Positions 15,096 to 55,857 of a stretch of 64,000 bases of DNA are shown one piece after another. Position 1 is the stretch's first letter; each line of letters begins with the position of its first letter. The notes beneath the pieces are model-generated. The model made no database searches. It saw nothing but the letters and a program-made list of their open reading frames with translations, and had not been told where the DNA came from. This DNA is from Escherichia phage nomo: the sequence record MN850578.1; one strand, 5' to 3'. The position numbers and the translations under genes are program-made.

Positions 15096-16139
15096 TTATT
15101 TAACGTGTTTGAAAATACCTGCCAACTCGGTCATTGTCATGCGGGTGGTCTTCATAAGATCTGTCATAGCTTTCTCCATAATTGGAGATACTACCATAAA
15201 GTTTCCTTTAGTGAAACCTTTATTCCAGTCGGTCACCAACAGGGGTTTAAGTCCAGCTCCAAGACGTTCACCAGTTAAAGCACAGCATTTGCGAATATAC
15301 GAACTCTTAAATTGGCTGAACGACAGATCAACTTTCATACCTACATCGTAGAACGTTTGACAATAGAAAGTGTAAGCTTTGGCAATCTCAACATCATCAG
15401 GTAGTGCAGGAACCTCTTCTGTAAGCTCCTCTTCGACCTCCTGAGTCTCTTTTTCCTCTTCATGCACCTGTTGCGTCATTTCTTCAATCTCTTCTGTGAT
15501 AGGCTCGTTTACAATGTCGGAAATGTGCTTCTTGGGTGCACGATAAGTAACTTTAGACATCGGTAGCATATCTTCCTCCTCTTCTTCGTCAAAGAGTGCT
15601 AGTTTATCCTCTTCCGTTCCATATTGCAAGATGAAATCTTCAAAAGTATAATCACCTTTCAATTTCTCCATACGCTCTTCGCTCAGGTGGAGCATCATCT
15701 GCTGGACAATTTTTCGATCAGTTTCGTCTTTAATCAAGACTGCAGTCTTTTTATCTACCAGACAGTCCTTTAGAGAGTTGCATCTCAATCCCACCACACA
15801 ACAGTTATCAACCGCATAAGGACCTTCATCATCTATCCGCTCCAGAGATGGGTAGAAAGGATTTCCCAGCCCGTTTTCATCTGTGTGCATGTCAAAAGGT
15901 ATAAGGGTATAGTCGCATACTCCATCTCCTAAAAGTTTTTTACCAAATAGGAGGTATTCTTCCCATGACAGGTCGAACTCTATATCTCGTTTCCGTGCGT
16001 TATTCTGTTTGCGTCTATATTTTTTGAGCAAGCGCTCTAACTCTTCTGGTGTATAATATTTTTCAAGATTCATGAGTCGTCTCTCGTGCTCTGTAAGTGA
16101 AGAAATCGTATCAATTGTCTCAACAGATGTCAACATCAA
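15096..16139 (-). CDS. hypothetical protein with degenerate endonuclease VII/HNH-like motif and acidic linker
   Basis: KRDIEFDLSWEEYLL..GDGVCDYT..ERIDDEGPYAVDNCCVVGLRCNSLK resembles phage endo VII/HNH core but lacks canonical His; internal in-frame start MLPMSKVTYRA has AGGAGG RBS, so may be two genes. Confidence 0.4.
   Translation of the reverse strand: MMLTSVETIDTISSLTEHERRLMNLEKYYTPEELERLLKKYRRKQNNARKRDIEFDLSWEEYLLFGKKLLGDGVCDYTLIPFDMHTDENGLGNPFYPSLERIDDEGPYAVDNCCVVGLRCNSLKDCLVDKKTAVLIKDETDRKIVQQMMLHLSEERMEKLKGDYTFEDFILQYGTEEDKLALFDEEEEEDMLPMSKVTYRAPKKHISDIVNEPITEEIEEMTQQVHEEEKETQEVEEELTEEVPALPDDVEIAKAYTFYCQTFYDVGMKVDLSFSQFKSSYIRKCCALTGERLGAGLKPLLVTDWNKGFTKGNFMVVSPIMEKAMTDLMKTTRMTMTELAGIFKHVK
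15537..15565. repeat. left arm of perfect 29-bp inverted repeat
   Basis: tgcacgataagtaactttagacatcggta is the exact reverse complement of 17399-17427. Confidence 0.9.
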
Positions 16140-17398: not shown

Positions 17399-17427
17399 TA
17401 CCGATGTCTAAAGTTACTTATCGTGCA
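17399..17427. repeat. right arm of perfect 29-bp inverted repeat
   Basis: taccgATGTCTAAAGTTACTTATCGTGCA; contains the start codon and first 8 codons of the 17404 gene. Confidence 0.9.
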
Positions 17428-42008: not shown

Positions 42009-42039
42009 TACTTGAAAATTCCTGGCATATCAAGTATAA

Positions 42040-42540
42040 GGGGGATTTCTAAAATGGATTTCCTCCTTTTGATATTTCACCGGGCTGGATATTTTAAAAT
42101 TCTTAGAAAATCAGAAAATGGATCGAAAACTAAAATGGATTTTTCAGAGTAGGCGCGACAAGCTGAATAACTCATCCTATCGTTTGCACCATATTCCAGG
42201 CCACCATTATAGATTTCCCACACATGCTAACCTCCCTCTACTAGAACTTCCTCCACTTACCCTTGACCTTCTATGGTAACAATCTAACCGCTATCTTGAA
42301 GTTGCGGTGCAGCTTTCCAGGTACTCGATCTACTTTTCATTTCAGGGCTTGGATTTTCTGAAAATTTTTCTCGATAAATTTCTCAGTACTCGATCTGTTT
42401 TTCGTCTTCTGAATCGGATTTTCTGGAAATCGTTCCGGCTCTCAACCTGAAATTTTTGGGGACGAAATCGATTTTTCGTTTTCAGAAATGGATTTTTAAA
42501 ATTTCTATATGGGAATATTTTAGTGGATACTATTTTATAG
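42040..42540. repeat. iteron-like direct-repeat region (non-coding)
   Basis: At least six copies of aaatggattt / cggattttctgg and two copies of caggtactcgatct / cagtactcgatct; no credible ORF. Confidence 0.6.
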
Positions 42541-42643
42541 TAAATTGTTACGGAGGGTAATTAGCGTGCTAATTAAATTTATTAAATGCGAGGAGTTCTC
42601 ATTTAGAATCTTGAATGATAATCATTCTCGTTTGCAGAATAAC

Positions 42644-42677
42644 GGGCAGGCCCGGTGATTGTCTCCCGGCCCCTGTT
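42644..42677 (+). repeat. conserved motif, copy A
   Basis: gggcaggcccggtgattgtctccc..cctgtt; degenerate copy at 42789-42806; inverted copy at 52271-52299. Confidence 0.6.
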
Positions 42678-43023
42678 GCCCCGGCTTGTTATTATAGTAT
42701 CACACAGGACAAAGAAAGCAAGGATTTTTTTTTGCATAAATTTTTAAATGATAATGATAACCGTTCTCATTTTATGCAGCGCTCATCCCTGGTGGTTGTC
42801 TCCCCCGTCACCGGTGCCTGCCGTCCTTTCGATAGGTATATTGTGCCACCTGTCGGGGCCGCTGTCAACACTTTTCAAAAAATTTTTCTAACCTGATGCG
42901 CTAACCGCTGCAACCTGGCGGGGCCAGCCTGGCAGGACCTAACTGACCAGGTGGGAGAGGGTGAAATCTTGCAAACCTGGTAGGCCCATGCTGTAGGGTA
43001 AACAATTGAAGAGGAGGTACAAA

Positions 43024-43161
43024 AATGAAAGGTAATGCTACTCACCTGGGAAATGTAGTGATTAATGATACAGAAGCGCGGGAACATAAAGAAGAGTACG
43101 AAAAAATGGTGGTTAACCTGGCGGGGGGCGGCAGGTGGATTCTATCATAAAAATAATTTAA
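43024..43161 (+). CDS. possible small protein (45 aa)
   Basis: Perfect AGGAGG 7 nt before ATG; below track threshold. Confidence 0.35.
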
Positions 43162-43990: not shown

Positions 43991-44386
43991 ATGAATAAGA
44001 ACGTACGCCGCATCATGAACGAACTGGCAAACGATGAAAAAATTATTGATATGCATTTGGTCAACATTTGCCGCCGTTGTGTAACATATAACAACCGCGC
44101 CGCAAAAGCGTGTGAGATGAACGCAAAAGGCACCTTAAAGCCCTTTCAGGTGGTTGTAAAATCTATAACTAGCGCAGCAGGCCAGGCGCAGGACCACAAC
44201 AACGAGAGCGCTAATATTGATCCGTCTTACGTAATGAAACGGATCCGGACTTGCAAGAATAAAGAGCAGGTATATAACGTCATAGATTGGCTGGACTCCC
44301 TGGGCGATGTGGTTTACAATAGGTTTTCTGCAGCTATCGAGATCCAGCTTGACAGATTGGACGGGAAAGTACTAAAAACTTATTGA
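43991..44386 (+). CDS. hypothetical protein
   Basis: ATG after aaaggaaaaag. Confidence 0.55.
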   Translation: MNKNVRRIMNELANDEKIIDMHLVNICRRCVTYNNRAAKACEMNAKGTLKPFQVVVKSITSAAGQAQDHNNESANIDPSYVMKRIRTCKNKEQVYNVIDWLDSLGDVVYNRFSAAIEIQLDRLDGKVLKTY

Positions 44387-44387
44387 G

Positions 44388-44434
44388 TTTATTTTTAGAT
44401 GGCCTTGACACCAGGGCCATCAATAAAGTAAACT
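44388..44434 (+). promoter_or_regulatory. repeated promoter/operator cassette, copy 1
   Basis: tttatttttagATGGCCttgacaccagGGCCATcaataaagtaaac; -35 TTGACA inside 6-bp inverted repeat; near-identical at 45010 and 48745. Confidence 0.55.
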
Positions 44435-44665: not shown

Positions 44666-45007
44666 ATGACTACTATGACCGCCTCAGAAAAAGCTATGCA
44701 GATCGCTGAACTGAAAAAACAGATCGCAGACCTTGAGAATAAGATCGATAACTTTGAAATCGACGAGGACAAGTACGACGAAAACTATGATGAATGGTTA
44801 GACGAGATCTACGGAGAAATTATGATCGGAAACATTTCTTTTCTTCCGTCGCGTATCCTCAAGGAGCTAGATCCTATCGCTTACCGCTGCGGATTTAGCG
44901 ACTACATCGACAGCCTGGATATTGAGGACGATGAAGAATACCAGGAATTACAGACAGAGTTAGAAGAAGCAAAAGAAGAGCTTGCGGAGCTGGAAGAAAA
45001 CGAGTAA
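44666..45007 (+). CDS. hypothetical acidic coiled-coil protein
   Basis: RBS aaaggag; 113 aa, Glu/Asp-rich. Confidence 0.55.
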   Translation: MTTMTASEKAMQIAELKKQIADLENKIDNFEIDEDKYDENYDEWLDEIYGEIMIGNISFLPSRILKELDPIAYRCGFSDYIDSLDIEDDEEYQELQTELEEAKEELAELEENE

Positions 45008-45009
45008 GC

Positions 45010-45054
45010 TTATTTTTAGATGGCCTTGACACCAGGGCCATCAATAAAGTAAAC
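45010..45054 (+). promoter_or_regulatory. repeated promoter/operator cassette, copy 2
   Basis: Identical core to copy 1. Confidence 0.55.
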
Positions 45055-45096
45055 TTTATACTGTTAACACTGAACTAATGCATAGGAGTTAAAACC

Positions 45097-45342
45097 ATGG
45101 CAGCACTAATCACCAAATATTATGCCCCTACCAACACCAAAAGCGCCCGTATCATGGTAAAAGGCTTCGGACGTAAAAAGGTGTACACCTGGGATTATGC
45201 CTTAGACACGGAAGACAACTACACCAACGCAATGACCGATTTTATTAATGAACTAAATAAGCAGATCTTGACAAGTTATAAAGTGACTGATATTGCTTAT
45301 ATAGGTGAAGGCGGGATCTGTTTTGTAGGCATTGTGAAATAG
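45097..45342 (+). CDS. hypothetical protein
   Basis: RBS aggag. Confidence 0.55.
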   Translation: MAALITKYYAPTNTKSARIMVKGFGRKKVYTWDYALDTEDNYTNAMTDFINELNKQILTSYKVTDIAYIGEGGICFVGIVK

Positions 45343-45416
45343 TTATTTTTTCGGTGGTCCTGGCTGCAGGGCCATCTATAAAGATAATTTATCAACACCA
45401 TGAAAGGAGAAAGTAC

Positions 45417-48742: not shown

Positions 48743-48744
48743 AA

Positions 48745-48790
48745 TTTATTTTTAGATGGCCTTGACTCCAGGGCCATCAATAAAGTAAAT
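48745..48790 (+). promoter_or_regulatory. repeated promoter/operator cassette, copy 3
   Basis: Same 46-bp cassette with one substitution in the -35 (TTGACT). Confidence 0.55.
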
Positions 48791-48833
48791 TTAAACCCTG
48801 TTAAAATAATCAGTGCAAAAAGGAGTAATGATC

Positions 48834-50041: not shown

Positions 50042-50275
50042 ATGATGGAACAAATTAAACGCGCTGAGGCTATTAATGGCAATGTGATCTATTTTGTCAG
50101 CAAAAACGAAAAAGGCGTACCATATGCGGCGGTAATAGTACAACCTGACGGCGATTATTGGTTTACTGTATACGGATCTTATTCTTTCGGGCGTCCGGTT
50201 CATGATAGAATTTTGAAAGTAGCAAATCCGACCGGGAAAAATATCACAGCAGAAAAATTTTTTGAAAATAGTTGA
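50042..50275 (+). CDS. hypothetical protein
   Basis: RBS aagagagg; preceded by hairpin ggggccgaaaaggcccc. Confidence 0.5.
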   Translation: MMEQIKRAEAINGNVIYFVSKNEKGVPYAAVIVQPDGDYWFTVYGSYSFGRPVHDRILKVANPTGKNITAEKFFENS

Positions 50276-50299
50276 CATGACCATATAAGACTGTAATAT
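50272..50299 (+). promoter_or_regulatory. sigma70-like promoter
   Basis: TTGACA, 16 bp, TAATAT; followed by hairpin ggggggcaacaagcccc. Confidence 0.55.
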
Positions 50300-52270: not shown

Positions 52271-52299
52271 AACAGGGGGAGACAATCACCAGGCCTGCC
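52271..52299 (-). repeat. conserved motif, inverted copy
   Basis: Reverse complement reads ggcaggcctggtgattgtctccccctgtt, matching 42644-42677. Confidence 0.6.
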
Positions 52300-52324
52300 T
52301 GTCATATAAGAACTATAAAAACCG

Positions 52325-53050: not shown

Positions 53051-55500
53051 GTCTTCTCTTTTCCTACCATAAACGGCCCTACCTGGCAAGTGGAATAATT
53101 GACGAGCCATCAATCCCACACACTGTACAAATATACATGGAAAATAACTATTGCATAATTTTTCATTGTGTGGTAGCAAGGCCATTTTTACACGTTTTTC
53201 CTTCCAAAATTGCACGTAATGCAGCATTTGCACAAAATTTAACCTGATGCATATCTTCAATAGCTTGTCAACAACTAAAAATCTTTATAAGTCATACACT
53301 TACATAACTACAAAAACGTTTTCTACGTGAAAAATCGAGTATAACTATAGCCGCCAGATCTCAGAATTTACGTACGCTCGCCATTCTATAGCCTGCTAAG
53401 CATTTATTCCAACCATAGAATAACTGAATAGTCAATACCTGCATAAAATAATTATTCGTGTAAACTGCATAACATAAATCGGCCCAGGTGTCAACATTTT
53501 TCGTAAACAGTCTGGAATTGTCACGTTAGGTTACCATAAGTAGAGAAATCTTTAGTCGTCTAATGTTTACTGTACGTTACTATATTAACTGAAATCATTA
53601 GATGACTAATAGAAAGATAAGAAATAATTAACAATACAATTATTTTATCTGTAACAATAAGGCAACTATGCAAACGAATGGCATGGCGCGACGGAGTCGC
53701 GACATAATATAAAAGCAGTAACCATCACCCCCGTGATAGTTTGTCTGCAAACTATTAATCAGATCATAGTTGCCTTGTATTTAGTTAATCATGACATAAC
53801 AAGCAAGGCAACTATAGATCTGCTAATAGTTGCCCTGCTTTTATATTATGTCATGCTAATTATAATCAGTGCGATTATTGTCATGTATAATTATTGTCAT
53901 GCAAACGAATGGCATGGCTGATTATCGGTGTGTAAACAGTCAATCATGTAAATGGTTAGCATGTGAACAATCAGGAATGTAAACAATCCAGTGTGTAAAC
54001 TAATAGGTGTGTAAAAGTGTCATGTTGTGTCAGTTAGGTCACATTATGTCAGACAAGTTTTTCTCCTCTTTGTCAAGTGCTGCATGAAAAATTTACAAGC
54101 TTGTATGGTAGCATTTTTGCGGCCCTGTTTACATTCAGGAGTGTATGTATAATCCTTGTTGTGTGGGCGTTTAGACGTCTGGACGGTCAGAAGTCTGCAG
54201 GTCAATATCTAATCTATTGGCTGCTAACTATATCCCCCACAAATAATAAGAAATATAATTGTTATGTGCGTAAACAGTAACCCATGTTATCAATCCCTGT
54301 ATGTATCGCCAGTTGTGCGCATAATGGGTATTATGTTAAATTGCCCGTAATGATAACTATTCTCACAATGATAGGTATTCTCATTCACCCCCACAAGATA
54401 GGTTGCAAATGTTGTGCCACTGTGTGAACGGCCTCACCTATTAATTTGCCTCACTGCCTCGATATTTGAGAATTGTTATAAGAATGAGAAGTATTCCCAT
54501 TCCGTCCGCCTGGCAGCACTCCAGTCGCTACGGCTCCTGACAGGGCAGCACTCCTGTAGGTCAGGTCAAAATCGTGGTAGAACTGGACCTGTTCGGATAT
54601 TTCTGGCTGACTCTTCAGGTCTGTGTGGGAAAAGCCAACCCCTCCGGCGGGGCAGGGGATATCTGCAGGAAAATTGCAGGTCAATTAAAAATTTACGTGG
54701 TGTATGAAGCGCTCTTCAGGCAAGGCATGTATTAGAGGATGAAACCCTCTTCAGGCAATGATATTTGTGGGTGGGATATTTGCTGGAAAGCCAGATATGA
54801 CGGGACTCCCGGCGGGGCAGGGGTAGTACAGACAGGGAAAATATGAGGATGTAATTGGGGAAATTGATCAGACAGGTAGAGTATGGAATATGTTACAGGT
54901 ATGTTAAATATGGAGGTTGAATATCTGTAGGATTTGTGTGTAAAATCAAAGACTTAAGGGGTGTTGTGGTATTTTCTATAAATAATTCAAGTTTAATAGG
55001 CAATATTTGTCTCTATCCGCTTTGTGTGGTAAACAGATTCAGATGAAATTGGTTTACAAGTGTATACATAATATACAAATTAAAGATACAAGAAACCCCC
55101 CTCCCCCCTCGGCTACCATTCACCTTTTCCTCTGACTGGTACTTAAACACTTATTCAGACTCTTCAGGTTATCACCCATATATCATATGGCAGTGACTGG
55201 TGTCCTCCGGCCCCTCTTTCGTCACCCGTCCGCTTCGCCATGCTAATGCCATAGCCAATGGTTCGGTTGTTCACCCTGTTCACTCAGGTGTATCTCCATA
55301 CCCCTTCAAACCGAAGAGAACAGAAAACCCGAATTACTCGGTAAAAGAAAAGAGAAGAACTTAATTTTATCAGGATAGGCAAGAATGTCAAGGCATGACT
55401 GCTCACTAAACAAGCAAACAGTCATGTGTGGAAGGTAAGTGATTGTGGTGGTGGGAAATTTAGTTGAAAGATGTGTTATAGGTGCGCTTCCAGCACTTTA
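53051..55500. repeat. 2.4-kb non-coding, AT-rich, repeat-dense region between convergent gene blocks
   Basis: No ORF with RBS; contains palindrome ggcaactatagatctgctaatagttgcc (53797-53824), inverted ggcaactat copies, direct repeats gcaaacgaatggcatgg (53660, 53891), GTAAACAG-type repeats, about 75-bp imperfect direct repeats with ccggcggggcagggg (54643, 54799) and ctcttcagg (x4). Confidence 0.7.
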
Positions 55501-55520
55501 GCCTGGCAGCTAATTGTGTG

Positions 55521-55736
55521 TCAGTCCAGCGGTTCATCCTCTACTTCACTGAAATCAATGTTCATGGTCTCTTCCCAACCATCGATCTCAGCACAAGAGT
55601 GGAGTTCTTTAGGGTTTACTCCCAAAGCCTCAGCAACAGAGTCTATATTTAACACCTCTGGTAGGTATGATTCATCGAATTCAAGGTAAATCAGGCCACG
55701 AGTGTTGTCAGCCCCACCAAATATTTCTATCTTCAT
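55521..55736 (-). CDS. hypothetical acidic protein
   Basis: RBS gaggag. Confidence 0.5.
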   Translation of the reverse strand: MKIEIFGGADNTRGLIYLEFDESYLPEVLNIDSVAEALGVNPKELHSCAEIDGWEETMNIDFSEVEDEPLD

Positions 55737-55857
55737 GAAATCTCCTCTGGAAATGAGAGTGTGAACAGGGTTTTATACGTTCCAATGCACAAGAATTATA
55801 CACGTTTGCCTCTTCAGGCCATGCTTTAGCATGAGGAACCTGTGTGGGCTCGGTGCT

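What the first reader, a model, noticed from the sequence alone, without database searches (positions are those of the whole stretch)
42040..42540. Iteron-like direct repeats in a second non-coding gap
A roughly 1-kb intergenic gap contains at least six copies of an aaatggattt / ggattttctg motif and two copies of cag(g)tactcgatct, with AT-rich spacers. Arrays of short direct repeats are typical of iteron origins or regulator-binding arrays, and no ORF here has an RBS.
Basis: seen in the sequence. Interest (0 to 1): 0.5.

Follow-up and report, generated by a model that had tools for sequence, protein, structure and literature searches.

The report
Conserved single-copy repeat array in rV5-like phage
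The flagged repeats are real: they form a one-of-a-kind, evolutionarily conserved array of probable protein-binding sites in a non-coding gap of an rV5-like E. coli phage, about 12 kb from the physical end of the genome. The array is most likely a replication origin, or else a border element like the unexplained repeat region of phage T5.

Summary
The window is a Vequintavirus (rV5-like coliphage). The repeats exist and exceed chance. GGATTT occurs 6 times in 552 nt against 0.25 expected, always on one strand. The exact motifs occur nowhere else in a 137-kb near-identical genome.

The right-hand copies belong to three 65-74-bp units. In each, box A (CTCGATC) lies exactly 26 nt before box B (YGKATT). 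All three units persist in five Vequintavirinae genera, with a constant 139-142-bp span.

The repeat blocks are as conserved as the flanking genes (0.93 identity), while the C-rich centre drifts (0.73). There is no conserved ORF, no Rfam hit and no significant RNA fold. This points to a DNA-level protein-binding element.

Published 459-bp terminal repeats of a sister phage map to window 54052-54510. That places the array 8.7-9.1% in from the physical end, at the inner border of the early-gene block. T5's putative injection-stop region has the same position and the same order of element types.

Function is unproven. My estimates: replication origin about 0.3, T5-like entry or border element about 0.2, transcription control about 0.2. 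Classic iteron geometry, DnaA/IHF sites and a packaging role were tested and not found.

The parts
42038..42068 (+). Hairpin AAGGGGGA / TCCTCCTT followed by TTTGATATTT. It looks like an intrinsic terminator for the upstream operon. One motif copy (AAATGGATTT, 42052-42061) sits in its loop.
   Evidence: Fold. In the pair count on 8 genomes, 98% of cells are paired, with one compensatory GC-to-AU change (slur16) and a 4:4 split between GU and AU at one pair. This is not significant on its own.
42039..42148 (+). Left repeat block. It holds GGATTT/GGATCG-core copies at 42043, 42056, 42120 and 42137, within (A)AAATGGAT(T/C) motifs. It also holds GATATTT motifs (42071 and 42088), which recur at this position in every related genus.
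   Evidence: (families D5 and D7, 81-nt register). Mean pairwise identity is 0.93 across 9 vequintaviruses. GATATTT and GAAATGG(A/T)TTTT motifs are present in CR3, SPLA5a, Av-05, KPP-1 and Schickermooser.
42149..42318 (+). Variable centre. The sequence drifts, but the strongly C-rich, G-poor composition of the + strand is kept (GC skew -0.44 to -0.72). This makes it either rut-like for rightward RNA or R-loop-prone for leftward RNA.
   Evidence: Mean identity is 0.73, against 0.93 for the flanking blocks. The skew profile is the same in the window, rV5 and FV3, and an analogous patch exists in the T5-like phage Spc35.
42318..42382 (+). Unit 1 of the three-unit array: box A CTCGATC at 42324-42330 and box B TGGATTTT at 42350-42357, followed by the AAAATTTTT tract.
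   Evidence: (family D1).
42383..42456 (+). Unit 2: box A CTCGATC at 42389-42395 and box B CGGATTTT at 42415-42422.
   Evidence: (family D1). BLAST-level similarity to the units of SPLA5a and CR3.
42457..42520 (+). Unit 3: a degenerate box A, CGAAATC, at 42463-42469 and box B TGGATTTT at 42489-42496. It overlaps a 16-pair hairpin (42452-42489) followed by GGATTTTT, which looks like a terminator.
   Evidence: for the unit. for the hairpin, which is mostly invariant, so there is no covariation test.
42480..42600 (.). AT-rich stretch (GC 0.25-0.30), the second least stable duplex in the 64-kb window. It contains a leftward sigma-70-like promoter (TTTACT-16-TAAAAT, 42544 to 42517) and the 16-bp palindrome AATTAGCGTGCTAATT (42559-42574).
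   Evidence: stability; promoter scan; conservation.

Best explanation
The repeats are a single-copy cis-acting DNA element: an array of binding sites for one sequence-specific protein. That protein is probably phage-encoded, because the repeats change between phage lineages that share E. coli as host.

The core of the element is three bipartite sites. In each, box A (CTCGATC) lies exactly 26 nt before box B (YGKATT). The three sites together span about 140 bp. Extra box-B-like half-sites lie in a second cluster on the far side of a C-rich spacer.

I think the most likely role is a replication origin, or one of several. In this model the protein-loaded array sits beside the most easily melted DNA of the region (42480-42600). 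Leftward host-polymerase transcripts, which have no gene to express, run through the array into a C-rich template patch, where a G-rich RNA would form a stable R-loop. That R-loop would give the phage's T7-gp4-type primase-helicase single-stranded DNA to load on.

Shown here: the repeats, their uniqueness, their conservation, the strict geometry, the absence of coding or RNA-structure signal, and the composition. Inferred: protein binding, which protein binds, the transcripts, the R-loop, and initiation itself.
For: The element is unique in the genome and confined to one strand.

The three units keep a 26-nt box A to box B register and a 139-142-bp total span in Vequintavirus, Certrevirus, Seunavirus, Avunavirus and Mydovirus. 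The spacers between the boxes and the unit-to-unit distances vary.

The repeat blocks show 0.93 identity, like the flanking CDSs at 0.90-0.94. The neutral parts of the same gap show 0.62-0.74.

There is no conserved ORF, no Rfam match and no significant RNA fold (z between -1.7 and +1.3).

Stephanstirmvirinae, which share the host, carry different repeats at the same position, as expected if sites and binding protein co-evolve.

The AT-rich stretch at 42480-42590 is the second least stable duplex in 64 kb.

Leftward promoter-like sites at 42544 and 42868 have no leftward genes within 26 kb. The counterpart in Av-05 is a consensus TTGACA-17-TATAAT.

The C-rich patch is kept in composition but not in sequence.

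The rV5 authors could not locate an origin.
Against: This is not classic iteron geometry: the units are 63-78 bp and irregularly spaced, with no helical phasing.

There are no DnaA boxes and no IHF site in the gap.

No initiator gene has been identified, adjacent or elsewhere.

GC skew only weakens here and does not switch.

Low duplex stability is also typical of this phage's early-promoter upstream regions, so it is weak evidence.

The architecturally parallel region of T5 is not where electron microscopy placed the T5 origins, according to Davison.

The promoters, transcripts and R-loop are predictions only.
Confidence: 0.3

Rival explanations
1. Border or DNA-entry pause element, the counterpart of T5 Repeat Region 3 (the presumed injection-stop signal). 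In this reading the array marks the inner edge of the terminal early-gene segment. A nucleoprotein or structural block there would halt genome delivery after the first 12 kb or so, until early products are made.
For: Vequintavirus Gotham has fixed ends with 459-bp terminal repeats. These map to window 54052-54510. The repeats therefore lie 11,970-12,470 bp, or 8.7-9.1% of the genome, in from the end. For comparison, the T5 first-step-transfer segment is 7.9% and Repeat Region 3 lies at about 7.6-8.6%.

Everything between the array and the end is a block of tiny genes with their own sigma-70 promoters, transcribed toward the end. The pre-early genes of the T5-like phage Spc35 are arranged the same way.

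Going from the inside toward the end, the order of element types is the same in the window and in Spc35: same-strand direct repeats with a GGATTT core, then a C-rich patch, then more repeats, then Fur-box-like palindromes, then early genes, then the end.

BLAST links the Fur-like arrays of the two phage groups.

In Mydovirus KPP-1 the homologous array lies about 9 kb from the published terminal repeat.

Vequintaviruses share the high sensitivity of T5-like phages to DNA intercalators. This is circumstantial, because Drexlerviridae share it too.
Against: No homologue of T5 A1, A2 or dmp is found in the 64-kb window, which includes the whole terminal block.

Sequence similarity to T5 is confined to the Fur-like palindromes. 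The direct repeats share only a 6-7-nt core.

The DnaA-box pairs of the T5 region are absent from this gap.

The early block is not duplicated as a long terminal repeat.

A stop signal acting during entry needs a binding protein that already exists (from the host or the virion), whereas the lineage-specific repeats argue for a phage-made protein.

The function of the T5 region itself is untested.
Confidence: 0.2
2. Transcription-control region at the junction of the middle and early gene blocks. It would combine terminators and a Rho-loading site that stop the long upstream operon with an operator array for a phage regulator. That regulator would govern the gap's own promoters or antisense transcripts, or shut off early genes.
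For: Two terminator-like hairpins with T-runs lie on the + strand (42038-42068 and 42452-42489).

The C-rich, G-poor patch of about 120 nt, conserved in composition only, fits a Rho utilisation site.

Promoter-like sites lie on both strands just to the right, including a Fur-box-overlapped TTGAAT-N18-CAGAAT that is conserved across genera.

In Klebsiella phage KP13-16 the repeats at this position are TTGACA-17-CATAAT promoters with a CGGATTTTAAAATCC palindrome in the spacer.
Against: The units carry no sigma-70 -35/-10 match on the + strand.

The box A-N19-box B motif occurs nowhere else in the genome, so it is not a promoter class.

Terminators and Rho sites do not explain a three-fold bipartite array held constant over five genera.

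The statistics for the hairpins are weak.
Confidence: 0.2
3. The repeats encode, or are part of, a structured non-coding RNA or a small RNA with repeated modules.
For: The region is conserved and non-coding. Predicted promoters point into it from the right. The + strand of the right block folds slightly better than shuffles (z = -1.73).
Against: There is no Rfam match at gathering or permissive thresholds.

The other three folds are not better than shuffles.

No hairpin is conserved within the units across genera. A candidate pairing between box A and the sequence upstream of box B holds in KPP-1 and CR3 unit 2 but fails in the window's units (inspection).

Boxes at a fixed distance separated by a variable spacer are a DNA-recognition signature.
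Confidence: 0.05
4. Packaging signal (pac or cos-like terminase-binding repeats) or a genome terminus.
For: Two repeat clusters flanking a variable centre resemble the P1 pac and SPP1 pacL/pacR layouts (recalled from my own knowledge, not tested). rV5 was described as circularly permuted.
Against: Gotham has fixed ends whose 459-bp repeat maps 12 kb away, at window 54052-54510. The terminal repeat of KPP-1 is likewise in the other non-coding region, about 9 kb from its copy of the array.
Confidence: 0.03

Closest known systems
Phage T5 'Repeat Region 3', the long untranslated region at the inner end of the left terminal repeat and the presumed injection-stop signal (Heusterspreute 1987; Davison 2015 and 2020)
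   Same: Both are non-coding regions of about 1 kb conserved across a phage lineage. Both lie about 8-9% in from a fixed physical end and border a block of small early or pre-early genes transcribed toward that end. Both show the same order of elements: same-strand direct repeats with a GGATTT core, a C-rich patch, more repeats, then Fur-box-like palindromes. The palindrome arrays are similar at BLAST level. In both, the function has not been tested experimentally.
   Different: The T5 direct repeat (DRD) is GTCGGATTTGCACA in 9 copies, not a bipartite 33-bp site in three units. T5 adds paired DnaA boxes, which are absent here. The T5 region lies in or straddles a 10-kb terminal repeat, whereas the repeat here is 459 bp and 12 kb away. 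No A1 or A2 homologues are present. Two-step entry has never been examined in rV5-like myoviruses.
Iteron-type replication origins (lambda ori, P1 oriR, plasmids such as pSC101 and RK2)
   Same: Both have several same-orientation direct repeats that are unique in the replicon, lie next to an AT-rich, easily melted stretch, and differ between lineages.
   Different: Iterons are about 17-22 bp at roughly 22-bp, helically regular spacing, usually lie in or beside the initiator gene, and often come with DnaA or IHF sites. Here the units are 63-78 bp with a bipartite 33-bp core and irregular spacing. No initiator is known and no DnaA or IHF sites are present.
Transcription-primed phage and plasmid origins (T7 primary origin, T4 oriF/oriG, ColE1)
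   Same: These share promoters that fire into a non-coding, AT-rich or R-loop-prone segment. The position near the early/middle border recalls T7 (about 15% from the end). The primase-helicase is of the T7-gp4 type and needs pre-opened DNA.
   Different: Those origins need no separate array of repeated protein sites. The promoters and the R-loop here are predictions only.
Terminase recognition arrays (lambda cosB R sites, P1 pac hexamers, SPP1 pacL/pacR)
   Same: Both have small numbers of repeated sites in clusters flanking a central segment.
   Different: The physical ends of two related phages map 9-12 kb away from the array.

Membership tests
Iteron-type replication origin | Three or more direct repeats of about 17-22 bp at regular, helically phased spacing | tested here: not met
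   The core copies are spaced 13, 64, 17, 214, 65 and 74 nt. The units are 63-78 bp and the unit-to-unit distance varies between genera: 65/74, 78/63, 75/67 and 74/67.
Iteron-type replication origin | An adjacent AT-rich DNA-unwinding element | tested here: inconclusive
   The stretch 42480-42590 is the second least stable duplex in 64 kb. However, the other stability minima are early-promoter upstream regions, so the signal is not specific.
Iteron-type replication origin | A cognate initiator gene next to or containing the repeats, with initiator binding | not testable with these tools
   The flanking genes are small proteins of unknown function. No binding data exist.
Iteron-type replication origin | Host-factor sites (DnaA boxes, IHF) | tested here: not met
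   No TTWTNCACA match is convincing or conserved, and there is no WATCAANNNNTTR match in 42009-43024.
Iteron-type replication origin | Supports initiation of replication | not testable with these tools
   This needs marker-frequency analysis, 2D gels or plasmid amplification assays.
T5-type injection-stop region (Repeat Region 3) | A long untranslated repeat region at the inner border of the terminal pre-early block, about 8% from a fixed end | tested here: met
   The Gotham terminal repeat maps to window 54052-54510. The array lies 8.7-9.1% in from the end, with the early block in between.
T5-type injection-stop region (Repeat Region 3) | Sequence homology of the repeats to T5 DRD, IRD' or IRC' | tested here: not met
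   BLAST similarity is limited to the Fur-like palindromes, which lie outside the flagged coordinates. The direct repeats share only GGATTT.
T5-type injection-stop region (Repeat Region 3) | Paired DnaA boxes | tested here: not met
   There are none in this gap. DnaA-like boxes are mildly enriched in the other, terminal non-coding region instead: 13 found against 6.6 expected.
T5-type injection-stop region (Repeat Region 3) | The trans-acting factors A1 and A2 | tested here: not met
   tblastn of Spc35 A1, A2, dmp and five neighbouring proteins against the window gave nothing below E = 0.01. The remaining 73 kb of the genome was not searched.
T5-type injection-stop region (Repeat Region 3) | Two-step DNA transfer demonstrated | not testable with these tools
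   No experiment was found in the literature library.
Sigma-70 promoter cluster | -35 and -10 hexamers at 16-18-nt spacing within each unit | tested here: not met
   The scan found no + strand site in 42040-42540. Box B reads TATTTG in Av-05, which lacks the -7 T. The motif is unique in the genome.
Known structured RNA family (Rfam) | A covariance-model match | tested here: not met
   There were no hits at gathering score. The permissive hits were all 12-16 bits against thresholds of 38-167.
pac/cos packaging site or terminus | Coincides with the physical DNA ends or terminase cut sites | tested here: not met
   The ends of Gotham and KPP-1 lie 12 kb and 9 kb away, in the other non-coding region.

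The most novel reading that the evidence does not exclude
rV5-like myoviruses (Vequintavirinae) deliver their genome in stages, as T5 does. The terminal 12 kb or so, which carries the host-takeover genes, would enter first, and entry would pause at this repeat array. On this reading the Vequintavirinae array and T5 Repeat Region 3 are two versions of one kind of DNA-entry checkpoint, and host Fur, bound to the adjoining palindromes, is part of it.
Probability: 0.12. Interest if true: 0.85.

Novelty: new variant of a known kind. Interest (0 to 1): 0.58.

Why it matters
No origin, entry signal or early/middle control element has been defined for Vequintavirinae, although these phages are widely used in therapy and biocontrol collections. 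This work delimits a unique element with precise site geometry that is conserved across five genera. It can be deleted, pulled down or tested directly for replication.

The element also shares its position and architecture with the T5 region that has been proposed as the injection-stop signal since 1987 but never tested. That gives a second, independent phage lineage in which to ask what such regions do.

The Fur-box-like palindromes next to the array and at the genome end hint that these phages read or titrate the host iron regulator.

Tried and rejected
- Coding. Annotators disagree on ORFs in the gap. The ORFs have unconserved starts, stops and lengths.
- Tandem repeat finder. It found only a trivial 12-nt repeat.
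- CRISPR-like mini-array. Whole units repeat and there are no unique spacers.
- Other copies. None exist in the window or genome.
- Host or plasmid-like origin. blastn of the whole gap against 5,426 E. coli genomes gave no match at E <= 1. The plasmid collection was not searched.
- IMG/VR scan with CTCGATC-N19-CGTATTT. It returned mostly single chance hits because only 14 bases were specified, and was uninformative.
- PHROGs on ten early-block proteins, to find a DNA binder or a T5 A2-like protein. All were 'unknown function'.
- GATC/SeqA clustering. There are 3 GATC in 552 nt against 2.8 expected in the window. It is enriched only in some other genera.
- Cruciform or hairpin pairing between box A and the sequence upstream of box B. 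It holds in KPP-1 and CR3 unit 2 only.
- Homology between the T5 DRD repeats and these units. Not supported by BLAST.
- ECF, sigma-54 and sigma-28 promoter readings of box A and box B. Spacing or consensus does not fit (by inspection against consensus sequences from my own knowledge).
- Literature. No transcriptome or origin mapping exists for Vequintavirus, and no report of Fur boxes in T5.

Full report
IDENTITY AND CONTEXT. The window is a Vequintavirus, an rV5-like E. coli myovirus. The 1.2 kb around the finding is 99.4-99.6% identical to phages pangalan, nomine and CarlMeissner (Bas48), and 121 phage records match it. Window coordinates coincide, to within 3 nt, with CarlMeissner 38440-88400.

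On the + strand the gene order is as follows. From 16.2 to 42.0 kb come rIIA/B, a helicase, methyltransferases, primase/helicase, DNA polymerase and about 25 small genes. The gap runs from 42009 to 43024. From 43.0 to 53.4 kb come about 35 tiny genes, most with their own strong sigma-70 promoters and terminators. From 53357 to 55842 there is a 2.5-kb stretch with no genes, followed by minus-strand genes. Different annotators place different short ORFs in the gap.

Exact AAATGGATTT (3 copies), GGATTTTCTG (2 copies) and GTACTCGATCT (2 copies) occur only in this gap, both in the 64-kb window and in the full 137,623-bp genome of CarlMeissner, and always on one strand.

The core GGATTT occurs six times in 552 nt, against 0.25 expected from the window-wide density, with none on the other strand. 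This is the densest GGATTT cluster in the genome. Repeated 8-mers and 10-mers greatly exceed dinucleotide-preserving shuffles of the gap itself: 25 against 5.9 +/- 3.1, and 10 against 0.56 +/- 1.0.

ANATOMY. The short motifs are pieces of larger structures.

- Left block (42039-42148). It holds four GGAT-core copies and GATATTT motifs in an 81-nt duplicated register (families D5 and D7). Its first copy lies in the loop of a hairpin (42038-42068) that is followed by a T-run.
- Centre (42149-42318). It has no repeats and is strongly C-rich and G-poor on the + strand (GC skew -0.44 to -0.72).
- Right block (42318-42520). It consists of three direct units of 65 and 74 bp (family D1).

Anchoring the units on CTCGATC shows that each carries box A (CTCGATC, degenerate as CGAAATC in unit 3). 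Exactly 26 nt downstream lies box B ((C/T)G(G/T)ATT). A T-rich but variable spacer separates the boxes, and an AAAATTTTT-type tract follows.

To the right of unit 3 lies the second least stable duplex of the whole window (42480-42590). It contains a leftward sigma-70-like site and a 16-bp palindrome.

CONSERVATION. Across nine vequintaviruses spanning about 82-99% identity, the two repeat blocks show 0.93 mean pairwise identity. This equals the flanking CDSs (0.90-0.94). The centre shows 0.73 and the edges of the gap 0.62-0.74. The blocks are therefore under purifying selection, and the centre keeps only its composition.

Beyond the genus, tblastn with a downstream protein located the syntenic gap in other genera. 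The same three units, with the same 26-nt register, are present in Certrevirus CR3, Seunavirus SPLA5a, Avunavirus Av-05 and Mydovirus KPP-1. In those genera box B reads CGTATT. Unit-to-unit distances differ (65/74, 78/63, 75/67, 74/67), but the distance from unit 1 to unit 3 stays at 139-142 bp. Local BLAST supports homology of the units with SPLA5a and CR3.

The GATATTT and GAAATGG(A/T)TTTT motifs of the left block also recur at the same place in every genus. Stephanstirmvirinae occupy the position with different repeats. In KP13-16 these are two 45-mers that read as TTGACA-17-CATAAT promoters with a CGGATTTTAAAATCC palindrome in the spacer. Schickermooser has other A/T-rich repeats.

NOT CODING, NOT A KNOWN OR EVIDENT RNA.
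- The 32-aa ORF at 42054 is cut to 7 aa in slur16 and extended to 35-84 aa elsewhere by indels.
- The minus-strand ORF at 42225 varies from 9 to 17 aa.
- The GTG of the annotated 47-aa ORF at 42307 is GTA or ATA in six of nine genomes.
- Rfam gives nothing at gathering score and only noise at permissive thresholds. There are no tRNAs.
- Folding z-scores are -1.73, -0.46, -0.64 and +1.27 for the two blocks on both strands.
- Two + strand hairpins with T-runs are compatible with terminators. The first shows one compensatory change and a GU/AU alternation, and the second is nearly invariant. Neither is statistically compelling.

Two boxes at a fixed distance separated by a variable spacer are what protein recognition of DNA produces.

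WHERE THE ELEMENT SITS ON THE PHYSICAL CHROMOSOME. rV5 was reported as circularly permuted. More recent read-based work differs. [quoted passage not shown] A third report infers headful packaging with partial permutation.

The Gotham record starts and ends with its repeat. The repeat maps to window 54052-54510, with the physical end at 54510. The flagged repeats are therefore 11,970-12,470 bp from the end, or 8.7-9.1% of the genome. In Gotham's own coordinates the gap lies at 10.9-11.9 kb. In KPP-1 the homologous array is about 9 kb from the terminal repeat, which again lies in the other, gene-less region.

This rules out a terminus or packaging role for the array. It also shows that the array is the inner border of a terminal block made only of small early-type genes transcribed toward the end.

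THE T5 PARALLEL. A BLAST of the CR3 gap hit 513 phage records, including T5-like phages. In those the match falls in the untranslated part of the left terminal repeat. This is Davison's 'Repeat Region 3', proposed to hold the injection-stop signal of T5's two-step DNA transfer. Its function remains untested.

In Spc35, going from the genome interior toward the end, the order is as follows:
- direct repeats GTCGGATTTGCACA
- a C-rich patch (skew -0.6 to -1.0)
- more of the same repeats
- five or six Fur-box-like palindromes
- DnaA boxes
- pre-early genes transcribed toward the end
- the end itself

The window shows the same order and strand polarity: GGATTT-core repeats, a C-rich patch, the three units, Fur-box-like palindromes (42611 and 42750), the early genes and the end.

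The limits of the parallel are clear:
- BLAST similarity is confined to the palindromes.
- The T5 repeat is not bipartite.
- DnaA boxes are missing from this gap.
- The early block is not a long terminal repeat.
- T5 A1, A2 and dmp have no detectable homologue in the window.

Membership in the T5 system is therefore not claimed. The resemblance is one of position and layout.

WHAT IT MOST LIKELY DOES. The facts that any explanation must cover are these:
- a unique, one-stranded, gene-like-conserved array with strict site geometry
- lineage-specific repeat sequences in phages that share a host, which argues for a phage-encoded binding protein
- an adjoining AT-rich, easily melted stretch
- leftward promoter-like sites with no leftward genes
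- a composition-conserved C-rich patch
- a position at the early/middle border, 9% in from the end

I rank a replication origin first (about 0.3). In this model the array nucleates a complex next to meltable DNA. Leftward transcripts crossing into a C-rich template would be G-rich and R-loop-prone. That would supply single-stranded DNA for a T7-gp4-type primase-helicase, by analogy with the T7, T4 oriF/oriG and ColE1 origins (established knowledge). The rV5 authors found no origin by skew analysis.

Several points count against this. The geometry is not iteron-like, and there are no DnaA or IHF sites. No initiator is known, and skew does not switch here. Low stability is also typical of early-promoter upstream regions. 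The T5 counterpart is not where T5 origins were mapped.

The second reading is a T5-like entry-pause or border element (about 0.2). It is supported by the positional and architectural parallel. It is weakened by the missing A1 and A2 and by the need for a binding protein that exists before infection.

The third reading is a transcription-control zone (about 0.2): terminators, a Rho site and an operator array. It explains the hairpins and the C-rich patch but not the three-fold bipartite array. An RNA gene (about 0.05) and a packaging site (about 0.03) are unlikely. The remaining probability goes to functions not considered here.

NOVELTY. The rV5 paper marks a 'non-coding' box and reports a failed origin search. 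Nothing in the searched literature describes this array, its cross-genus conservation or its relation to the T5 region. It is best filed as a new variant of a known kind: a phage cis-acting repeat array, either origin-like or border-like. Its function is open and directly testable.

Noticed in passing
window 42611-42629 and 42750-42768; also 54346-54385 and 54483-54501: These are Fur-box-like palindromes, such as TTGAATGATAATCATTCTC, matching 15-16 of 19 positions of the consensus GATAATGATAATCATTATC. Genome-wide they occur only in the two large non-coding regions. One starts 10 nt from the mapped physical end. Arrays of the same palindrome (AATGAGAATcATTCTCATT) sit at the same place in CR3, SPLA5a, Av-05, KPP-1, KP13-16 and Schickermooser, and in the terminal-repeat untranslated region of T5-like phages. 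The library holds no paper reporting Fur boxes in T5.
   Followed up: partly
window 53357-55842: This is a 2.5-kb gene-less region where the + and - gene blocks converge. The 459-bp direct terminal repeat of sister phage Gotham maps to 54052-54510, so the physical end is at 54510. The region holds the least stable duplex of the window (about 53525-53700). It also holds 13 DnaA-box-like sites, 11 of them on one strand, against 6.6 expected (P = 0.017). It is probably the 'non-coding' box of the rV5 paper and a second origin or packaging candidate.
   Followed up: partly
window 42688-42715 and 42840-42868 (minus strand); related copies at 50251-50277 and 52277-52305 (+ strand): Leftward sigma-70-like promoters (TTGCTT-16-TACTAT with an extended -10, and TTGACA-17-CACAAT) lie in a region with no leftward genes. 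Each is followed by the conserved leader GGGAGACAAYCACC..., and both are almost invariant among vequintaviruses. The same UP-element/-35 segment and the same leader also occur on the + strand, downstream of promoters of early genes.
   Followed up: partly
window 42566-42658 (+): A 30-aa ORF (V/MLIKFIKCEEFSFRILNDNHSRLQNNGQAR) with a GGAGGG Shine-Dalgarno sequence is intact in all nine vequintaviruses compared, with an ATG start in seven. Its 3' half overlaps the first Fur-like box. It is not present in other genera.
   Followed up: partly
window 42559-42574: A 16-bp palindrome, AATTAGCGTGCTAATT, which is the perfect palindrome AATTAGCATGCTAATT in slur16, EduardKellenberger and Gotham. It is nearly invariant within the genus and looks like an operator.
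   Followed up: no
L010 690-790; L012 1480-1580; L015 1750-1840; L016 1840-1920; L014 1815-1900; L139 1440-1530 (minus strand): A GC-rich segment of about 110-150 nt (CTACCGGCGAT...GTTAGCCCCGCCTTTTCGCCGTGGGGTGGCG) is 80% or more identical between different genera and subfamilies. It lies just downstream of a strong minus-strand promoter, which in Av-05 is the consensus TTGACA-17-TATAAT. It is probably an abundant non-coding RNA. There is no Rfam match, and it is not recognisable in the Vequintavirus window.
   Followed up: partly
window 44386-44434, 45007-45055, 45341-45389, 48743-48791: Four copies of a 49-nt cassette, AGTTTATTTTTAGATGGCCTTGACACCAGGGCCATCAATAAAGTAAACT. It is a hairpin with a TTGACA embedded in it, lying between early genes, and looks like a combined terminator and promoter module.
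   Followed up: no
window 15537-15565 and 17399-17427: A perfect 29-nt inverted repeat, 1.8 kb apart, flanking the divergent promoter region between the anti-sigma factor gene and the fucosyltransferase gene.
   Followed up: no
phage collection, for example MG065644-MG065690: Sixteen GenBank records named 'Campylobacter phage' (host C. jejuni) are 93-99% identical to this E. coli Vequintavirus region. They are probably mislabelled or contaminant genomes.
   Followed up: no
literature: PMC13250531: Vequintaviruses (Bas48-59) are among the three phage groups most sensitive to DNA intercalators. The others are T5-like phages, in which the block occurs after first-step transfer, and Drexlerviridae. 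This is circumstantial for an early, entry-linked vulnerability.
   Followed up: no
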